64,000 nucleotides of DNA from a virus (IMGVR_UViG_3300013947_000019:195864-259863); one strand, 5' to 3'. Positions 2,758 through 38,798 are shown, counted from the stretch's first letter. Notes: generated by a model from the letters alone, not told the origin. Numbers and translations are program-made.

Positions 2758-4683
2758 CTAGTTAATAATTGGTTCCGTAGAATCAATTGTCAAATTTACA
2801 TTCTTCTTATCATTCGGTCCAAGTTCTTTATTCTGTAATAAGTTTTGACCAACGTTTCCATTCACATCACTGCGGACATACCATGGAGCTTGATCAGGAC
2901 TAGGACCAGCATCACTGGTCCCCTGATCATCTACTACAGTATCACCCTCAGAGAGAACTCGAGTCATATGATCAATAATATTTTGATCTGCATATTCAGC
3001 ATAAGGATGGTCGACACTAATACTAAAAGTACAACCAAATTCCTTATACTTCTTATTCAACATCCGAGCATATTTAGCTCGATCAGATTCATCCACTTCT
3101 TTAATCATATCCATAGCCATCCGAATACTATCTTGATTCAGAATTGGATATTCCATTTTGTCGGGAAGTAGATAGATATTATCTATAACTTCTGGATCTA
3201 GTTGATTGATCACATAAGAATTGCACTTATCTTTATTCAGTAGGTCTCCACCAGCTTCATTAAGATCAGTATTCATCTTTTGTGAAACCATAGTAGAAGC
3301 AAAATTAATGATATTACGAGTAATTACTGCTTCATCCATCGGATTATCAGTTGGATTCCAACACAGATCATACAAGTATTGTCTATGATAAAAAGCTTCA
3401 GCAGAAGAATCATCACATTCAGATAATTCATCATACTCAGCCTGCACGTGATTGATCCAATCTGCTAAAACACCCATCCAATAATCATCTAAGTTATCTA
3501 TACTAAATTCAGGATTCAGTAAGATCATTCCCAGTACACTGTATAAGCTTAAGCAATATTCAATATGAATATTATCTTCCGCTTTACCTTCGTGATACCA
3601 GTTAGCTTGCTTTCTGAACCAAGGAATTACTTTATCTTCAAACTCCTCAGTAGTCAACTTATTAGGATGAGTTAACTGTTGTGTATAATCTTTACAAAGA
3701 GGAGGTCTGAGTCCATATAACTTCCATATTGTATCATTGGTAGCCAATCCACCAAGACAAGTTAACAGTCTGATAGAGAAGGCATTAGATTTTACATCTG
3801 GATAGAAATACTCTAAGAAAGAATACTCTTTCAGATTAGCAATAGCTTTACCAAGAGCAGGCTGGAAATTCAAAATATTTGCGGTACGTGCTGCAATCTG
3901 CAGGTTTCGAATCTGTCTCTCTTTCTCAGTACCTTTATTGAACTGCTCTTCAGAAACAACACCAGGAATATCTGCACTCAATGTAGCAAAACTTTCCTGT
4001 AATGATTTTGGAGCATATTCATATAAAGGATTACCCTTACCGATCTTAACATCCATATCAAACTCTTTGACTTTAGCAAAGATACGTTTTGCTAATTCTG
4101 CACGGTCTTTAGGATCTTTACAATGACCAAACATCCGAATAGCAAATTTCACATGTTTCTTATCATTGAGCGGATATTTTCTCAGTCTAGGTAAACCAAA
4201 TTCCGAATCATCAAGAGCATTGCGTTCTGCAGCTTTCATTGCAGATTCGTTATAATATGACTCATACATAGAAGTATAAGACTGATTAATATCACCAAAT
4301 ACTTCTTTAGGAGTATAATTCATCTGGTCAGTATCTGGATCAAGAAGATCTACCTGCTCAGTATCATCTTCATCGCTCAAAAGAGAAGGCTCATCTCCAT
4401 CTACTTTCCAAGTAGTTACATCATGAGACTTATATAACTTAGAGAAGGGAAGATCTACACTTTCCATCATTTGTGCTCTGACGATATCTGCACCAGTATA
4501 ATCCTGTGCATTTGGATCCATCAGCTTCTCTCCCTGATCATCATTATTCACAGTCTCTTCATTACCATCTACATCTGGATCAAGTAATGAACGATTCTGA
4601 ATAGGATCTTCGATATTAACCAGGATCTCTTTGCGGATACTGGCAACATCAGGAGTTGACATAGGAATATAATTCAGACTCAA
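2758..4683 (-). CDS. putative virion protein with two DUF6582-like modules
   Basis: Motifs LDDSEFGLPRLRKYPLNDKKHVKFAIRMF and IYLLPDKMEYPILNQDSIRMAM; many x-x-E-S/A sites. Confidence 0.5.
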   Translation of the reverse strand: MSLNYIPMSTPDVASIRKEILVNIEDPIQNRSLLDPDVDGNEETVNNDDQGEKLMDPNAQDYTGADIVRAQMMESVDLPFSKLYKSHDVTTWKVDGDEPSLLSDEDDTEQVDLLDPDTDQMNYTPKEVFGDINQSYTSMYESYYNESAMKAAERNALDDSEFGLPRLRKYPLNDKKHVKFAIRMFGHCKDPKDRAELAKRIFAKVKEFDMDVKIGKGNPLYEYAPKSLQESFATLSADIPGVVSEEQFNKGTEKERQIRNLQIAARTANILNFQPALGKAIANLKEYSFLEYFYPDVKSNAFSIRLLTCLGGLATNDTIWKLYGLRPPLCKDYTQQLTHPNKLTTEEFEDKVIPWFRKQANWYHEGKAEDNIHIEYCLSLYSVLGMILLNPEFSIDNLDDYWMGVLADWINHVQAEYDELSECDDSSAEAFYHRQYLYDLCWNPTDNPMDEAVITRNIINFASTMVSQKMNTDLNEAGGDLLNKDKCNSYVINQLDPEVIDNIYLLPDKMEYPILNQDSIRMAMDMIKEVDESDRAKYARMLNKKYKEFGCTFSISVDHPYAEYADQNIIDHMTRVLSEGDTVVDDQGTSDAGPSPDQAPWYVRSDVNGNVGQNLLQNKELGPNDKKNVNLTIDSTEPIIN

Positions 4684-33182: not shown

Positions 33183-34856
33183 TTACACGCGCTTAATGAA
33201 GCGAGCGCCAGAATCCTTCATGATGGGCAGCTCGGTAATCGTGCAGACAGTGCTCACCGGCTCGAACACGACGGGCAGGTTACGCTCACTGTACACGATA
33301 GCGGGCATACGGGTGTTATCAGCACGACGCAGCTGATCGGTCAGGAAGGAGCTATACTTGAAGTAGTTATAGGTCTTAACCTGGCTGTTCTTGAAGTTGT
33401 TGGGAATCAGCAGGATCTGCAGCTTGTCATCGGGCATGAACTGAGAGCTGATGAAGTAGAAGGTAGCGGTGGAGGTCTTGCAGCCGATGCTGTAGTTGAT
33501 CACACCAGAACCCTTGGACTCCTCAGTCAGAGCCTTATCCATGGAATAATCGGTATCCAGGATACGCATGATGTAGGGAGAAACACCAACACGGAAGTGG
33601 CAGTCAGTGATGTTCCAATCGTTCTTCATCTTCATGGCGCACTGATCCAGGAAGGGAACGAACTCACGCTTCAGCCACTCCAGGTTGCCGTAAGCAAAGT
33701 TAGCAGGAGCCTCGAAGCTGAACTCAGCATCGAACTTATGACCGGCATCCAGACCCTTCTTCAGACGCTGATCCTCCATGCGAGAGCTGATCACAGTGAT
33801 GTTCTCGGTCATGGCAGCGATGATATCAGTGTTAGCAAAATGCTGAATGCTGTTGCTGATATCGGTACGAGTTTCCTGAGGCAGGCTGACCTCGATATGA
33901 GGACGAGTCGGGACCAGGAACTGCTGGAAGTTGTTCTTGAAAGCAGTGTAGATGGGGTGAGTATGCTCAGCATGAGAAACGGTAGCATAGAAGTACACCT
34001 TGGTGATCTCACTATCGGCATGCAGATAGGACAGCACGGAACGATCGAAATCGAACTTAGCATCCATATTCACGGTCTTCACGGTACCATCAGCCTTCTT
34101 GCACTCAAAGGAGCAAGCCAGAGTGTTGGTCTTACCATCGAAGTAAGGAGTAGCACCCTTGGACATGGTGATGTTCTTCTCCTCGATGACCTCACCATCA
34201 ACAGTAGCCTCGATCTTGGCAACACGGACATCACGGTTCACACGGAACAGGGGGTTCGTGCCAGTGGTAAAGACAGCCAGGTTCTGGCAACCAGCACCAG
34301 GAACCAGACCATTGGTCAGGGTCTCAACCTCGATCTCAGTCTTGTCGACGAAGGGGATCTCAGCATTGGGGGACAGAGCATCGATCAGATCTTCCTCGTG
34401 CTCATCGGAAGGAGCCTTAACGGTAGGAATGACCTCTTCGATCTCAACGATCTGCTTCTCCAGAGTGCGGGTGTCATACAGACGATGCAGGACAGCCTCA
34501 TAAGGAGTACGCATGGTGGTAGCAATAGAAGCAGTCAGGGTAACCAGGCTGGGCATAACAGCGGACTCGTTCATGGAACCGCTATTCCACTCGTTCATGT
34601 TGTTCATGAACATCTGAGCAGCGGACTCAGCGTCCTCCTGCAGCATGGTATCGAACTGCTGATCACCGAACAGCTTGGAATAATGCTCATTCATGGTACG
34701 AGCGATCATATCAGCAGTGTTCTTGATCTCCATGGGGCTCATCTGAACACCACTAACACTCTCATTGCAAATGGCATCGGTGCCACTCTGCAGACTAGCA
34801 ACAATATCTCTAATGTCGTGGCTCTTATCATTCATGCCACCAAACAGCTTGGACAT
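33183..34856 (-). CDS. major capsid protein precursor
   Basis: 557 aa, strongest codon bias in the window (long antisense ORF); N-terminal propeptide with CNES/MNES sites; among head genes. Confidence 0.75.
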   Translation of the reverse strand: MSKLFGGMNDKSHDIRDIVASLQSGTDAICNESVSGVQMSPMEIKNTADMIARTMNEHYSKLFGDQQFDTMLQEDAESAAQMFMNNMNEWNSGSMNESAVMPSLVTLTASIATTMRTPYEAVLHRLYDTRTLEKQIVEIEEVIPTVKAPSDEHEEDLIDALSPNAEIPFVDKTEIEVETLTNGLVPGAGCQNLAVFTTGTNPLFRVNRDVRVAKIEATVDGEVIEEKNITMSKGATPYFDGKTNTLACSFECKKADGTVKTVNMDAKFDFDRSVLSYLHADSEITKVYFYATVSHAEHTHPIYTAFKNNFQQFLVPTRPHIEVSLPQETRTDISNSIQHFANTDIIAAMTENITVISSRMEDQRLKKGLDAGHKFDAEFSFEAPANFAYGNLEWLKREFVPFLDQCAMKMKNDWNITDCHFRVGVSPYIMRILDTDYSMDKALTEESKGSGVINYSIGCKTSTATFYFISSQFMPDDKLQILLIPNNFKNSQVKTYNYFKYSSFLTDQLRRADNTRMPAIVYSERNLPVVFEPVSTVCTITELPIMKDSGARFIKRV

Positions 34857-35022: not shown

Positions 35023-35886
35023 TTAGGAGAAATCGGGTTCCAAATCTTCATCGGAAAGATCATCCTCCGTATCCTCACTCTCTTCTTCCTGATCCTCAAT
35101 AGATTTCTCCACATCGATCTTGTCATCATCCTTCTCTTTAGGTTTCTTGGATGACTTTTTAGAGGAAGAAGATTTATTGGGTTCATTCTTAAATCCGTCT
35201 TTATTTTCTTTGGTGAAGTTCAACAGATCATTCAACTGCTTTGTGAAGATTAAATACGCTTGCAGATTCTCTTCATAGTTACTATAAGAGAATTTATATG
35301 TCAGATAATCAGTCACAACACTAAGTAAATAATCAAGTTTATTATTTACATAGTCACGAACAGAAGCATCCACTACAGCTTCATTCTGATCAATCAGATT
35401 TTTAGCTGATGTAACAGAAGCTCGTAAATCTTTATAATCATTATAAAGCTTACGCTTAGCCATCAGTCGATCCAACTTAGAGAGCTCCAGAATATTGATG
35501 TGGACATTCTGCTCAACACCGTCAGTATCATCCATCCCATCATCATCAGGATCCGGTAATCCATCAGGATTCTCTCCAGAATCATCAGAACCGCCATCAG
35601 GATCCATATTAAAATCATCATCAGCAGAATCATTGGCATCATCCTTATTCTGATCAGATTCATCTTTCTTCTCATCCGAGTTATTCTCGTCATCCTTGTT
35701 GGGCTCATCATTGTTTTGATCATCATCCTTCGGAGTTTCATCATTGTTATCCTCCGGGGCATTATTATCATCAGCTTCTGGTTCAGGAGTATTGGTGGAA
35801 TCATCATCCGCAAACGGATCTTCCATACCAGTATCCTTATCTTTAGTGGCTTCTAACAGAGCCATTAACTGATAGTTATTCAACAT
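35023..35886 (-). CDS. acidic head/scaffold-like protein
   Basis: Long D/N/E-rich disordered segment, LLEA site, upstream of MCP. Confidence 0.5.
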   Translation of the reverse strand: MLNNYQLMALLEATKDKDTGMEDPFADDDSTNTPEPEADDNNAPEDNNDETPKDDDQNNDEPNKDDENNSDEKKDESDQNKDDANDSADDDFNMDPDGGSDDSGENPDGLPDPDDDGMDDTDGVEQNVHINILELSKLDRLMAKRKLYNDYKDLRASVTSAKNLIDQNEAVVDASVRDYVNNKLDYLLSVVTDYLTYKFSYSNYEENLQAYLIFTKQLNDLLNFTKENKDGFKNEPNKSSSSKKSSKKPKEKDDDKIDVEKSIEDQEEESEDTEDDLSDEDLEPDFS

Positions 35887-35889
35887 GGA

Positions 35890-37077
35890 TCAATCGACCC
35901 CCAATCTATTTTGACTTCTGGAACCTTCATACGGAAGTTTCGTAATACGTCTGTATTCACGTTGGATCTTCTGACGAAGACGAATCAGTTCAATCTTAGC
36001 TTTATCATCACCATTACGTTCAGCAATAGAAATCTTCTCTTCGATGATTTCTAACTCATCCTTCAGCTGACCAACCAGAATATTTCTATCTTTCTTATCG
36101 GTCTCACGATCAATAACAATAGAAACGATATAGGTAATAACAGCAGCTGCAGGACCAATGTTGGGAATAATATACAGAAGACCAGAACGGAGCAGACGCT
36201 TGATTTCATGATTAATACGAAGAGCTTCACCAACCATCTCAGCATGCTTACGATTTCGACGCTGATTACGAAGATCATTTACCTTCTTAGTAATCTTCTC
36301 TTCGAACCAATTCTCTGCTTTCTTACGAGCAAAGTTTGCTTCTTTAGCTTTCTCTACTGCCTTATTGACAATACCTTCATTAAGAGCTTCTCCAGCAGTG
36401 GCTTCAGATAAGAACTTCTGAGTCATCTCACTAATCTGCTCTTCTGCATGGAACATGTCATCAATAATAGACTGAGCATCTTCAGGAAGAGTACGTACTT
36501 CATAGATATACTCAATATCATCTGCATTATGAGTAGATTGAATCTCACGTTTGGTCAGACTATTCATATAAAAATAATAACTCTGAAGAGTAGATAGTAC
36601 AGTCATGACAAACTTGGTAGAATCTACCTGAGAGGTCTGTGCTTCAATACTATATTTAATAGAACCGAAACGAACAATCAGATTATCTAAGAATGCTTTT
36701 ACATTAGAAATATACTGAAGACGATTCACCTTCATGGTAGAAAGTTCAGAGTCCACCATATTCATAATTGTTTTAAACATTCCTTCATATACGCCGGGTT
36801 TATAAATACCCATATAAAGTGTCAGATTATTTACAAATTTTGGATCGTTCCAAAGAATATTGTAAACCTGAATAAAATTCTCTACTTTAATATCATCAAT
36901 CTTAACCTGATTCATAAAGAACCCAGAGAAGAAAAGAAAACATGCGTCCTCTGATTTAAACTTTGTCAGGGCGCAGGTATTTAAGGCTTTCTTATAATCA
37001 GCAACCAGAGGTGCTGGATCAAATACAACAGTCTTCGCAACAGCCTCTTGCAAGAAATAGTTATTCTTATTCAACAA
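35890..37077 (-). CDS. putative head protein
   Basis: TTG start with SD GGAGGT; LQEA/LSEA/LNEG sites; late-type promoter 37105-37117. Confidence 0.55.
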   Translation of the reverse strand: MLNKNNYFLQEAVAKTVVFDPAPLVADYKKALNTCALTKFKSEDACFLFFSGFFMNQVKIDDIKVENFIQVYNILWNDPKFVNNLTLYMGIYKPGVYEGMFKTIMNMVDSELSTMKVNRLQYISNVKAFLDNLIVRFGSIKYSIEAQTSQVDSTKFVMTVLSTLQSYYFYMNSLTKREIQSTHNADDIEYIYEVRTLPEDAQSIIDDMFHAEEQISEMTQKFLSEATAGEALNEGIVNKAVEKAKEANFARKKAENWFEEKITKKVNDLRNQRRNRKHAEMVGEALRINHEIKRLLRSGLLYIIPNIGPAAAVITYIVSIVIDRETDKKDRNILVGQLKDELEIIEEKISIAERNGDDKAKIELIRLRQKIQREYRRITKLPYEGSRSQNRLGVD

Positions 37078-37170
37078 GGCTATTCACCTCCTATTATATA
37101 CTCTTTATAGATTTGTCAAACTTATAATTGAGTAATATAAGAAAAAGAAAAATATAAAATAATAGTGGGT

Positions 37171-37198
37171 TGGGAGGGGCTCCGAAGAACCCCTCCCA
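37171..37198 (-). terminator. terminator closing the RAMP + array transcript
   Basis: TGGGAGGGG...CCCCTCCCA hairpin, A-rich flank at 37140-37163 (U tract on minus strand). Confidence 0.65.
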
Positions 37199-37209
37199 CT
37201 GTGATAGTG

Positions 37210-37684
37210 GTTGCCGTTACTAATCGAGACAGAACTGTCCATTGCCGATGGTTGACTGATCGCTTCTGCGCATTACCGTGCTTTTACCGTACACATTGTG
37301 ACCATACCATACCGTCACAAGATCGGACATATCTGCACTCCACCAAGGCGATGCGATACTATTCTGTACAGTACCTCTGCAGGATCGAGCATCACTTTAG
37401 CTTACCTCGACACTACATCTCTCAACCGTACCAAGCCATTACCAGACCAGACCACGCGGCACAGTACTTCATGGCACCACACCATGACTGGACCAGACCA
37501 AATGGCACTGGACGTCACTTCACCTCGACCTGACCAAACGGAACTGTACCATTACACCACAAAACCGAATGGTACAATACATTACCAAGGCTCTACAATA
37601 CGTGTCCTGACCCTACGTTACCATAACACTACCCTACCGAACCTGACTTTACCGTCACTGCACAAAATGGCACCATACCATTAC
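37210..37684 (-). repeat. pentamer-periodic non-coding array (14 units of 31/36/41 nt); candidate guide-RNA array
   Basis: Hexamer punctuation (e.g. ATTACC on +) at 37210, 37241, 37272, 37308, 37339, 37370, 37401, 37437, 37478, 37519, 37550, 37581, 37617, 37648 and 37679, separated by 5-7 NNNAC pentamers. Confidence 0.85.
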
Positions 37685-37730
37685 TTTAATCGGATTATTT
37701 TATATCAGCCGACTCTGATATTTAGTATGG

Positions 37731-38660
37731 TTACTTAACGCGGGAACGAGTGGAGCTGATATCACTATTGCCAACATACTCAGCCTGCTCATTCTTCTCA
37801 TTCTCCAGTGCAAACTGATAGTTGGCCTCCCACTCCTTCTGAAGCATCTCCAGCTTCTTCGGGCTCAGGTTACCCGCAACGGGTGTACCATTCTCATCCA
37901 GGATCTGATACATAAACCGACCATAACCGGCGTTTCTCCACTGAAGCAGGCCGACGTAGTAGCCATAGTTCAGCCACTCCACCAGCAGATCCAGATACTT
38001 ATCATTGGGGAAGCTCACAGTAATATCAAAGTGAGCGCCAGCCATGATCTGCTCAGAATTGGCCAGAGCAACACGCGGGCCCTGTGCAGTCTCAGCACGG
38101 AGCGGGCGCTGCAGAGAATGGAACCGATTGTCCGGGCCCCATTCGATCTCAGCATACTTGTCAATGATATTGACATCCTGATCGATACGGGACAGATATG
38201 CAGTCATCGCAGAAGACTTGGAGTCGCTGCGATTGCGGCAGGCCTTGGCAGCGGCTTTAAAGAAACCTTTCATCTGATAACCCATCATCACAGGCTCACC
38301 AGTGATCGGATTGCGCGGGAACACGGTCATTGCCTTCAGTTCTTCAGTGGGAACACCATCAGGATTCTCGGGAACAAAGGTCAGCTCCTGTTCCACATCC
38401 ATGGAAGTCTCAGTACGCACGACCTTCTTTTTACCATAACTGTTGCTGATGAAGTCACTCACCAGCTGCTTATTGTTGGACCAGGTACCGAGGATATCGG
38501 TGATGAAGTAGATACGAACCCGCATCTGATTCATCATGAACTCTTCATCTTCCAGGAAGTGAGGGTTCTTGGGAACCATGAACTTACCACCCATAGTGGA
38601 GTTACCAAGCTTCTCGCTCTTCACAGCGATCTTTTCCTCAGCTGTCTTCTTAGTAGCCAT
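37731..38660 (-). CDS. stand-alone RAMP / Cas7-like RNA-binding protein
   Basis: N-terminal strand VRIYFITDILGT, GEPVMMGYQMKGFFK helix, RVALANSEQI, Gly-rich loop GYYVGLLQWRNAGYGRF. Confidence 0.75.
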   Translation of the reverse strand: MATKKTAEEKIAVKSEKLGNSTMGGKFMVPKNPHFLEDEEFMMNQMRVRIYFITDILGTWSNNKQLVSDFISNSYGKKKVVRTETSMDVEQELTFVPENPDGVPTEELKAMTVFPRNPITGEPVMMGYQMKGFFKAAAKACRNRSDSKSSAMTAYLSRIDQDVNIIDKYAEIEWGPDNRFHSLQRPLRAETAQGPRVALANSEQIMAGAHFDITVSFPNDKYLDLLVEWLNYGYYVGLLQWRNAGYGRFMYQILDENGTPVAGNLSPKKLEMLQKEWEANYQFALENEKNEQAEYVGNSDISSTRSRVK

Positions 38661-38726
38661 TTTAAAGTCCTCCTAAATATTTATTAATTTATTTATTTTG
38701 ATAGGTATGCTACTTTCCTATCATTC

Positions 38727-38740
38727 TTATAGTATATATC
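38727..38740 (-). promoter_or_regulatory. early-type promoter for the RAMP gene (GATATATACTATAA)
   Basis: Motif match ~70 nt upstream of ATG, downstream of terminator 38765-38790. Confidence 0.6.
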
Positions 38741-38798
38741 TCTATATACATATAAAATCAGAAAACCCCAGGGATTTTACTCCCTGGGGAATTTTTTA

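What the first reader, a model, noticed from the sequence alone, without database searches (positions are those of the whole stretch)
37171..38740. Stand-alone RAMP/Cas7-like gene with a 5-nt-periodic non-coding array: candidate non-CRISPR RNA-guided system
Seen: a compact minus-strand unit of early promoter (38727), 309-aa gene, small hairpin (37702-37721), ~475-nt array and terminator (37171-37198). The array has 14 units, each 6+5n nt long (31,31,36,31,31,31,36,41,41,31,31,36,31,31). Each unit is a hexamer (ATTACC-like on +; GGTAAT-like on the sense strand) plus 5-7 pentamers. By my count 51 of 77 pentamers end in AC and 67 of 77 end in C on +, so the RNA reads roughly (N/G)GU-NN-(N/G)GU-NN. 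Conserved and variable bases alternate within each unit, unlike CRISPR repeat-spacer arrays. Known: the C-terminal Gly-rich loop (GLLQWRNAGYGRF) and the PxxxGxxxKG helix are RAMP/Cas7 hallmarks, and Cas7 polymerises on RNA with a fixed nucleotide step. No cas1, cas3, cas5, cas6 or cas10 is in the window. Inference: one subunit binds each pentamer and the variable dinucleotides encode a gapped target, plausibly in competing phages or host genes. The early promoter and capsid-like codon bias suggest early, high expression. From memory this resembles recently reported viral GGY/NN-repeat 'VIPR' loci; I cannot verify that here.
Basis: partly seen in the sequence, partly recalled or inferred. Interest (0 to 1): 0.96.

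Follow-up and report, generated by a model that had tools for sequence, protein, structure and literature searches.

The report
Phage VIPR system, punctuated guide array
A 260-kb gut-type jumbo phage carries a VIPR system, the CRISPR-related RNA-guided DNA-silencing device first described in 2026 preprints; it is a further example of a known kind (one Cas7-like protein plus about 13 short five-base-repeat guides), and its targets were not found.

Summary
On the minus strand a 309-aa gene (37731-38660) is followed by a leader hairpin, a ~480-nt array and a GC hairpin. The array has strong 5-nt periodicity (lag-5 identity 0.44 against 0.26±0.02 in simulations), and its register moves by +1 nt every 26-46 nt.

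The protein folds as a minimal Cas7-type RAMP (best match Csm3, Z 12). It belongs to a family of at least 1,876 proteins. In 77 of 80 genomic homologue loci the gene adjoins a period-5 array.

The system is already published as VIPR (bioRxiv 10.64898/2026.04.26.720920, .720927), including 'staggered' arrays and YNNNG repeats. This scan has also reported VIPR loci on other DNA (30 earlier findings in at least 24 genomes).

Local details:
- Only G-Y is fixed inside a block. The canonical GGY marks the first pentamer of each block.
- The modal block has 6 pentamers.
- No vap gene, cas gene or CRISPR array was found.
- The array has diverged much faster than its flanks in a related phage.

No target was found above chance.

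Verdict: a real feature and a new member of a known kind.

The parts
38766..38789 (-). Terminator-like hairpin of the upstream gene. It marks the upstream limit of the cassette.
   Evidence: 9-bp stem with 7 GC pairs, followed by a T run.
38661..38765 (-). Promoter and 5' UTR region of vipr, with the AGGAGG Shine-Dalgarno at 38674-38669. The promoter itself is not identified with confidence.
   Evidence: Sequence read directly. Only a weak sigma-70-like match at 38687-38659. The upstream 140 nt are poorly conserved against L005 (57%).
37731..38660 (-). vipr gene, 309 aa: a minimal Cas7-like RAMP. Residues about 43-264 form the RRM core, the thumb-like beta-hairpin (181-205) and the G-loop (237-249). 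The clade adds a Lys-rich N-terminal tail (1-42) and a long C-terminal helix (267-302).
   Evidence: AlphaFold2 model with pLDDT 82.6 and pTM 0.76. VIA-align top match Csm3 9g9a_D (Z 12.0, 158 aligned residues, rmsd 3.5), and all 50 listed matches are CRISPR RAMPs. Foldseek against PDB gives Csm3 and type VII Cas7 at E about 1e-7. The BFVD top hit is a phage 'Cas system-associated RAMP superfamily protein' (37% identity, TM 0.82). The family profile matches the SUSP1 Vipr family end to end but weakly (E 3e-4, probability 40%).
37682..37730 (-). Array leader: a hairpin at 37721-37702, then the box ATTAAAGTAATG (37690-37679) that runs into the first pentamer.
   Evidence: The hairpin and the 12-nt box are conserved in all four phages of the clade, while the array content differs.
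37249..37681 (-). vrRNA array of 13 clear blocks, each 5n+1 nt long (n = 5-9). Each block is one spacer nucleotide (A-rich), a first pentamer R-Y-G-G-Y, then pentamers N-N-n-G-Y.
   Evidence: Segmentation and logos. Significance against simulations. No Rfam family or ribozyme match. The fold is only mildly more stable than shuffles (z -2.3).
37199..37248 (-). Degenerate array tail or trailer, partly conserved in the closest relative.
37172..37197 (-). GC-rich hairpin (GGGAGGGG-loop-CCCCTCCC), the probable terminator of the vipr-array transcript. A T-rich stretch follows after about 14 nt.
   Evidence: Invariant in the four related phages. The consensus scan does not call it, because the T run is not adjacent.

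Best explanation
This is a VIPR (Viral Interference Programmable Repeat) system of the 'staggered array' kind.

Proposed mechanism:
1. The phage makes a Cas7-like Vipr protein, probably in large amounts.
2. It also makes one ~500-nt transcript that carries about 13 guide blocks.
3. One protomer binds each pentamer. It holds the constant G-Y with the G-loop (W241, R242) and the thumb, and it exposes the variable bases.
4. Each block starts with a canonical GGY pentamer that probably sets the register. The single extra nucleotide between blocks breaks the 5-nt register, so each block would carry its own short filament. The modal block has six protomers, which is one helical turn in the published SUSP1 filament.
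5. The exposed bases pair with double-stranded DNA of a competing mobile element through the published gapped code, in which two paired bases alternate with one skipped base. This silences transcription.

Shown here: the fold, the array anatomy, the link between family and array, the viral context and the fast divergence of the array.

Taken from the literature: RNP formation, DNA binding and silencing.

Inferred: the register-setting role of the first pentamer, one filament per block, and processing at the junctions.
For: - Literature: VIPR is defined as a minimal stand-alone RAMP plus GGY/NN pentamer RNAs in phages. It obeys a 1-nt skip rule and comes in seven types, including staggered arrays and YNNNG repeats.
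- Fold: the model is a Cas7-type RAMP.
- G-loop: it aligns with the SUSP1 Vipr G-loop and keeps W and R (SUSP1 W178 and R179, which contact G2 and Y3). The two SUSP1 residues that contact G1 (H17, D177) are T59 and Q240 here, in step with the loss of G1 conservation in the array.
- Array: it is periodic far beyond chance.
- Family link: 77 of 80 genomic homologue loci, and 9 of 9 other loci checked, have a period-5 array next to the gene.
- Punctuation: 89% of register shifts across 81 arrays are +1 nt, and the modal block is 6 pentamers. The junction logo x-R-N-G-G-Y is shared across the family.
- Divergence: in L005 the array interior is 61% identical with 156 gap columns, while flanking genes are 84-88% identical and Vipr is 97% identical at the protein level.
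- Expression: GC3 resembles that of the major head protein.
- No self-targets under any code tried, as the paper reports for its own loci.
Against: - No target was found, so the guide function is not demonstrated for this locus.
- Sequence similarity to the experimentally validated SUSP1 Vipr is weak (hhalign probability 40%).
- No Vipr structure appeared among the PDB matches, so the structural comparison is with CRISPR RAMPs only.
- No vap accessory gene is recognisable. The neighbours have no informative family matches and look like backbone genes conserved in synteny.
- Blocks of 5-9 pentamers are shorter than the 9-16 repeats of characterised vrRNAs. The paper did not confirm staggered arrays by RNA sequencing.
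Confidence: 0.9

Rival explanations
1. It is a VIPR relative with a different code. Because position 3 of interior pentamers is as variable as positions 1-2, each protomer would expose three bases and read three contiguous target bases with no skipped base. A 31-nt block would then specify about 17-18 contiguous bp.
For: - Interior pentamers are N-N-n-G-Y, with G at only 35% of position 3.
- Both SUSP1 residues that contact G1 are replaced.
- Twelve specified bases per 6-pentamer block is marginal specificity for a bacterial genome.
- The one block shared by two phages matches 18 of 18 contiguous bases, in codon register, in an Mre11/SbcD-like gene of another phage lineage.
Against: - That match equals the chance expectation of about 1-2 independent lineages, and no other block hits the same contigs.
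- Among hits to the two gapped patterns, the skipped bases match position 3 at 19 of 84 and 26 of 168, which is chance level.
- Triplets show no significant lack of stop codons and no coupling of position 3 to positions 1-2.
- No out-of-register overlaps were found between blocks of different arrays.
Confidence: 0.07
2. It is a remnant or minimal CRISPR-Cas module, for example a solo Cas7 of type III, IV or VII, and the adjacent repeat region has nothing to do with guiding.
For: The closest solved folds are Csm3, Cmr4, type VII Cas7 and Csf2. Weak sequence matches fall on the Cas7 and Csm4 G-loops.
Against: - No CRISPR-like repeat, Cas1 match or other RAMP was found in the complete 260-kb record.
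- The pentamer array travels with the gene in 77 of 80 homologue loci.
- The protein is well conserved while the array diverges faster than its flanks.
Confidence: 0.02
3. The array acts at the DNA level or as a translated element (iterons, a packaging or recombination site, or a repetitive peptide) and not as guide RNA.
For: Long antisense ORFs of 122 and 146 aa run through the array. Gene callers placed small ORFs inside the arrays of relatives.
Against: - A 5-nt period with +1 shifts cannot keep a reading frame.
- The ORFs lie on the strand opposite to the operon.
- The strand asymmetry, leader and terminator fit one transcript together with vipr.
- The content is hypervariable while only the G-Y scaffold is kept.
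Confidence: 0.01

Closest known systems
VIPR systems with 'staggered' vrRNA arrays and alternative YNNNG repeats (bioRxiv 10.64898/2026.04.26.720920, text and legends of figs S17-S18; non-canonical pentamers also in 10.64898/2026.10.21.760802)
   Same: A stand-alone minimal RAMP in a phage. A long array of back-to-back pentamer guides without tails or ribozymes. Only part of the GGY triplet is conserved. No CRISPR array or cas genes.
   Different: I could read only the legend, which speaks of '1 nt overlapping positions'; here I see one extra nucleotide between blocks. The paper says staggered arrays were not among those confirmed by RNA sequencing. No vap gene is evident here. The VIPR type (I-VII) of this family could not be assigned because the supplementary data are not held.
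Type II VIPR of Escherichia phage SUSP1 (Vipr at KT454805 28474-29061, vap1, four vrRNAs)
   Same: A RAMP with a G-loop ...G-x-W-R-x-x-x-G-R-F, one protomer per pentamer, and a phage-encoded system aimed at competing elements.
   Different: SUSP1 vrRNAs are discrete ~100-nt RNAs with 12-15 near-perfect GGY repeats, a 5' hairpin and a structured 3' tail. Here there are 5-9 repeats per block, no tail and only G-Y fixed. Vipr is 195 aa in SUSP1 and 309 aa here, with extra N- and C-terminal segments. Protein similarity is detectable only by profile comparison (E 3e-4). SUSP1 has vap1 and this locus has none.
Cas7 backbone subunits of class 1 CRISPR-Cas (Csm3, Cmr4, type VII Cas7, Csf2)
   Same: The RRM core, G-loop and thumb hairpin, and polymerisation along a guide RNA with a fixed nucleotide step.
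   Different: The step is 5 nt, not 6. There are no repeat-spacer array, no Cas6, Cas5 or large subunit, and no adaptation genes. The guide is interleaved with constant bases and is not contiguous.
TIGR-Tas systems (tandem interspaced guide RNA arrays, period 18 nt; named in 10.64898/2026.10.21.760802)
   Same: Phage-associated, compact, non-CRISPR tandem guide arrays.
   Different: Different period and array logic. The effector of that paper's TIGR example is FpTasA, which the paper treats as a fold distinct from Vipr; here the protein is a RAMP.

Membership tests
VIPR | Vipr protein: a minimal RAMP (RRM core, glycine-rich loop, thumb) without a second RRM | tested here: met
   Model pLDDT 82.6. 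Csm3 match at Z 12.0 over residues 40-257, and all top matches are RAMPs. Foldseek E about 1e-7. G-loop at 237-249 and beta-hairpin at 181-205.
VIPR | Sequence homology to an experimentally validated Vipr (SUSP1 family) | tested here: inconclusive
   Profile-profile comparison: 191 aligned columns, full length, E 3e-4, but probability only 40%. BLASTP is not significant.
VIPR | Adjacent non-coding tandem pentamers of YNNGG type or a related consensus (YNNNG, NNNGG), at least 4 units | tested here: met
   90 pentamers: 81% G-Y, 37% canonical GGY, z about 8 for lag-5 identity.
VIPR | Gene and array travel together across homologues | tested here: met
   77 of 80 genome loci. Also L001, L003, L005, L006, L007, L008, L010, L011, and weakly L012.
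VIPR | Viral or proviral context, with no CRISPR array and no cas operon | tested here: met
   An IMG/VR virus record with 100% CheckV completeness. Major head protein three genes away. No Cas1 match, Pfam RAMPs match or CRISPR-like repeat.
VIPR | vap accessory gene next to vipr (typical, not universal) | tested here: inconclusive
   The neighbours (421, 395 and 287 aa) have no informative Pfam or PHROG match. They are syntenic in relatives even when a Bro-N/ANT gene is inserted between them.
VIPR | vrRNAs are expressed and co-purify with Vipr | not testable with these tools
   Needs RNA sequencing and pull-down.
VIPR | Guides match natural targets by the 1-nt skip rule | tested here: inconclusive
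   No hit above chance in the phage's own genome or in IMG/VR. Only exact-match scans of the three longest patterns were possible.
VIPR type II (SUSP1-like) | Discrete vrRNAs of 9-16 GGY/NN repeats capped by a conserved structured 3' tail | tested here: not met
   Blocks of 5-9 pentamers abut one another with one nucleotide between them. There is no tail or hairpin between blocks.
CRISPR-Cas (class 1) | Repeat-spacer array and cas1/cas2 or other effector subunits | tested here: not met

The most novel reading that the evidence does not exclude
In this large gut-phage Vipr family the guides would be one-turn mini-filaments. A canonical GGY start pentamer sets the register, a single spacer nucleotide ends it, and six protomers per block is the norm. 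The relaxed N-N-n-G-Y repeat would let a third base per protomer take part in recognition, giving a denser code than the published two-in-three rule. The block shared by two related phages would then target an Mre11/SbcD-like nuclease gene of a competing phage.
Probability: 0.1. Interest if true: 0.6.

Novelty: new member of a known kind. Interest (0 to 1): 0.3.

Why it matters
It adds a complete, well-delimited VIPR cassette from a 260-kb jumbo phage, in a form without a recognisable vap gene, to a class that is only months old.

It also documents, across 81 arrays of one family, a regular grammar that the preprints mention only briefly. Blocks are 5n+1 nt long, a canonical GGY occurs only at the block start, G-Y is fixed elsewhere, and the modal block has six pentamers.

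That grammar gives concrete predictions. It predicts the sizes of the processed RNAs and the filament length, and it raises the question whether the third variable base is read. It may also help annotation pipelines that now call spurious ORFs inside such arrays.

It does not change the picture of what VIPR is.

Tried and rejected
- Pfam and PHROGs on the protein gave nothing useful. The only hit was a sub-threshold Csn2 match.
- PDB searches by sequence found only weak G-loop matches to Cas7 and Csm4. No entry described as Vipr appeared.
- Nucleotide search of the phage collection found no match. IMG/VR holds no close relative apart from the window's own record.
- Self-targeting was tested under four codes (NN, NNx, NNN, NNNx) for 77 blocks from four related arrays. 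None differed from block-shuffled controls.
- IMG/VR exact scans:
  - The 9-pentamer block gave 0 hits.
  - The same block without its first pentamer gave 12 hits, and the 8-pentamer block gave 24. These lie in unrelated ORFs and equal the chance expectation. Their preference for the codon frame is what a GAN/GCN-rich pattern gives in coding DNA.
  - The shared block read as 18 contiguous bases hit one phage lineage (5 contigs), in frame in an Mre11/SbcD-like ORF. About 1-2 lineages are expected by chance, no other block converges on those contigs, and that phage shares no genes with this one. I keep it only as a lead.
- Tests for a triplet code (stop-codon depletion, mutual information, overlaps between arrays) were all negative or inconclusive.
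- Rfam found no ribozyme or known RNA in the array.
- A search among 'relatives' is not available for virus records.
- Four other high-GC3 ORFs of the genome have no PHROG match.

Full report
**What is there.** The minus strand between 38789 and 37172 holds one compact unit.
- A terminator-like hairpin of the upstream gene lies at 38789-38766.
- A short untranslated region follows, with an AGGAGG ribosome-binding site.
- A 309-aa ORF runs from 38660 to 37731.
- A 7-bp hairpin lies at 37721-37702.
- A conserved 12-nt box, ATTAAAGTAATG, leads directly into a G/T-rich array of about 480 nt.
- A GC-rich hairpin lies at 37197-37172.
- The next gene has its own TTGACA / TATAAT-like promoter and Shine-Dalgarno, conserved in four related phages.

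**The periodicity is real.**
- Lag-5 self-identity of the array is 0.443. In 500 first-order Markov simulations it is 0.263 +/- 0.021, with a maximum of 0.319.
- A dynamic-programming chain of NNGGT-like pentamers scores 125.5, against 18.7 +/- 6.8 in the simulations.
- The chain needs a +1-nt register shift every 26-46 nt. This gives 13 clear blocks of 5n+1 nt (26, 31, 36, 36, 26, 41, 46, 31, 31, 31, 31, 31, 36) and a degenerate tail.
Its base counts agree with mine: G at position 4 in 81 of 90 pentamers and GT in 63 of 90.

**Anatomy of a block.** I pooled 77 blocks from this phage and three relatives.
- The first pentamer of a block is R-Y-G-G-Y, with G at position 3 in 95%.
- In later pentamers position 3 is almost free (G 35%, A 23%, T 24%, C 18%). 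Only G (85%) and Y (T 74%, C 16%) at positions 4-5 are kept.
- The extra junction nucleotide is A-rich.
- The junction logo recurs in 643 junctions of more distant family members, which use G-C where this clade uses G-T.
- In 81 arrays, with shifts of 1-4 nt penalised equally, 920 of 1,039 shifts were +1.
- Block size peaks at 6 pentamers. The counts for 5, 6, 7 and 8 pentamers are 217, 261, 148 and 79.

**The protein.**
- Pfam and PHROGs give nothing useful.
- The AlphaFold2 model, built on 45 homologues, has pLDDT 82.6 and pTM 0.76.
- An exhaustive structural comparison puts Csm3 first (9g9a_D: Z 12.0, 158 residues, rmsd 3.5). Every one of the 50 listed matches is a CRISPR RAMP: Cmr4, gRAMP, type VII Cas7, Csf2, Cas5 or Cas6. 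Foldseek agrees.
- In BFVD the best match is a gut-phage protein annotated 'Cas system-associated RAMP superfamily protein' (37% identity, TM 0.82).
- The RAMP core spans residues about 43-264. This clade adds a basic N-terminal tail and a long C-terminal helix.
- The family is large. It holds 1,876 proteins at E <= 0.001, and most are about 200 aa. Invariant motifs are YQxKGFFK, QRPLRAxTxQGxR and GxxQWRNxGxGxF.

**Comparison with the literature.** Three 2026 preprints from one laboratory describe VIPR systems.
- A stand-alone ancestral RAMP (Vipr) polymerises one protomer per pentamer on vrRNAs of alternating GGY/NN.
- It flips out GGY and presents NN to double-stranded DNA, skipping every third target base. 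This silences competing phages and satellites.
- The papers list seven types. They also list arrays that are 'staggered' or interspersed with hammerhead ribozymes, and alternative NNNGG, YNNNG and NNNNG repeats.
- A fourth preprint recovers 99 VIPR-like period-5 clusters, 21 of them with non-canonical motifs.

I located the validated SUSP1 locus at KT454805 27.5-29.5 kb. Its Vipr has H17 and the G-loop GDWRPRFGRF, and its vrRNAs are discrete, tailed and almost perfectly GGY. Profiles of the two families align over their full length, but weakly (E 3e-4, probability 40%). In that alignment W241 and R242 correspond to SUSP1 W178 and R179, which hold G2 and Y3. The two SUSP1 residues that read G1, H17 and D177, are T59 and Q240 here. 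That fits the loss of G1 conservation in the array. This last point is an inference from a low-confidence alignment.

**Link between gene and array.**
- In the three phages of the same clade the gene is followed by arrays of about 600, 600 and 1,220 nt with the same grammar (L005 with a 97% identical protein; L001 and L003 at about 70%).
- In six more distant loci the only strong period-5 segment abuts the gene.
- Among 80 homologue loci from the species-representative genome collection, 66 have such a segment just downstream and 11 just upstream. Only three have none.
- Those loci are mostly animal-gut Clostridia MAGs (Oscillospiraceae, Lachnospiraceae, Ruminococcus), with some Bacteroidota and Coriobacteriia.

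**Evolution of the array.** Between this phage and L005 the vipr gene is 88% identical in DNA (97% in protein) and the two downstream genes are 84-87% identical. The leader and terminator are conserved. The array interior is only 61% identical over aligned columns, with 156 gap columns, and the block number differs. One block is clearly shared and a neighbouring pair is partly shared. Guide content therefore diverges faster than its surroundings, by both point changes and gain or loss of blocks.

**Genome context.**
- The window is the last 64 kb of a 259,863-bp virus record with 36.9% G+C, rated 100% complete by CheckV.
- The cassette sits in the head-gene cluster, three genes upstream of the major head protein (33183-34856, PHROG 20655, E 1.6e-20).
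- The vipr gene has 50% G+C and GC3 of 0.61, fifth of 214 long ORFs. The head protein has GC3 of 0.65 and the median is 0.32. High expression would be needed, because the array offers about 90 protomer-binding sites per transcript.
- There is one vipr gene and one array. There is no Cas1 match, no Pfam RAMPs match and no CRISPR-like repeat.
- No neighbour looks like a vap gene.

**Targets.**
- None of the 77 blocks matches the phage's own genome better than block-shuffled controls under four codes. The paper reports the same absence of self-targeting for its loci.
- Exact scans of IMG/VR with the longest blocks gave 0, 12 and 24 hits. This is the number expected by chance, and the hits lie in unrelated ORFs.
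- Read as 18 contiguous bases, the block shared with L005 matches one phage lineage exactly. The match is in codon register (K-R-G-N-I-Q) in a 346-aa metallophosphoesterase that I read as Mre11/SbcD-like from its motifs. That reading was not checked with a family search.
- About one such lineage is expected by chance, and nothing else converges on it. I report it only as a lead.
- Statistical tests for a triplet code were negative or inconclusive.

**Verdict.** The locus is a VIPR system of the staggered-array, relaxed-repeat (YNNNG-like) kind, with no recognisable vap gene, in a jumbo phage. That kind is already published, and this scan has already reported 30 VIPR findings in at least 24 other genomes. 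It is therefore a new member of a known kind.

Three things are worth keeping. The first is the family-wide block grammar. The second is the match between the G-loop substitutions and the relaxed repeat. The third is the open question whether the third variable base is read.

Noticed in passing
window 33183-34856 (-): A 557-aa major head protein (PHROG 20655, E 1.6e-20) with GC3 of 0.65. In this 37% G+C phage a small set of genes, including vipr, has GC3 near 0.6 against a median of 0.32. This is probably an expression-linked codon bias and not recent transfer.
   Followed up: partly
window 35023-35886 (-) and 35890-37077 (-): Two genes lie between the array and the head protein: a 287-aa very acidic Asp/Glu/Asn-rich protein (scaffold-like) and a 395-aa protein. 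Neither has an informative family match. Their order is conserved in L001, L003 and L005.
   Followed up: partly
window 37085-37130 (-): A TTGACA ... TATAAT-like promoter and an AGGAGG Shine-Dalgarno precede the 395-aa gene. Both are nearly invariant in four related phages, which suggests a host with sigma-70-type promoters and strong Shine-Dalgarno use (Bacillota-like).
   Followed up: no
L049 2521-2538 (also L050-L053): An exact 18-nt match to the concatenated variable triplets of the block at window 37589. It lies in codon register in a 346-aa ORF that looks Mre11/SbcD-like from its motifs (L049 2071-3111, minus), in an unrelated IMG/VR phage lineage. The match is at chance expectation.
   Followed up: partly
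window 37165-37738 (+); L008 2753-2944; L010 4124-4339 and 4505-4627: Pentamer arrays produce long stop-free stretches. ORF lists and public gene calls place spurious 40-146-aa 'genes' inside them.
   Followed up: partly
L059 and L061 (JAGCAN010000001.1); L054 and L060 (MAG CAMJPQ01): One Oscillospiraceae contig carries two family members about 48 kb apart, and one Clostridia MAG carries two on different contigs. One host bin can therefore hold several VIPR elements.
   Followed up: no
L001 2935-3843: In one relative a Bro-N/ANT (anti-repressor-like) gene is inserted directly upstream of vipr. It is absent from the window, L003 and L005.
   Followed up: no
L012 about 2270-2345: By eye, a tRNA-like sequence lies just upstream of a distant family member whose period-5 segment is short and weak (3576-3800). 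No tRNA scan was run.
   Followed up: no
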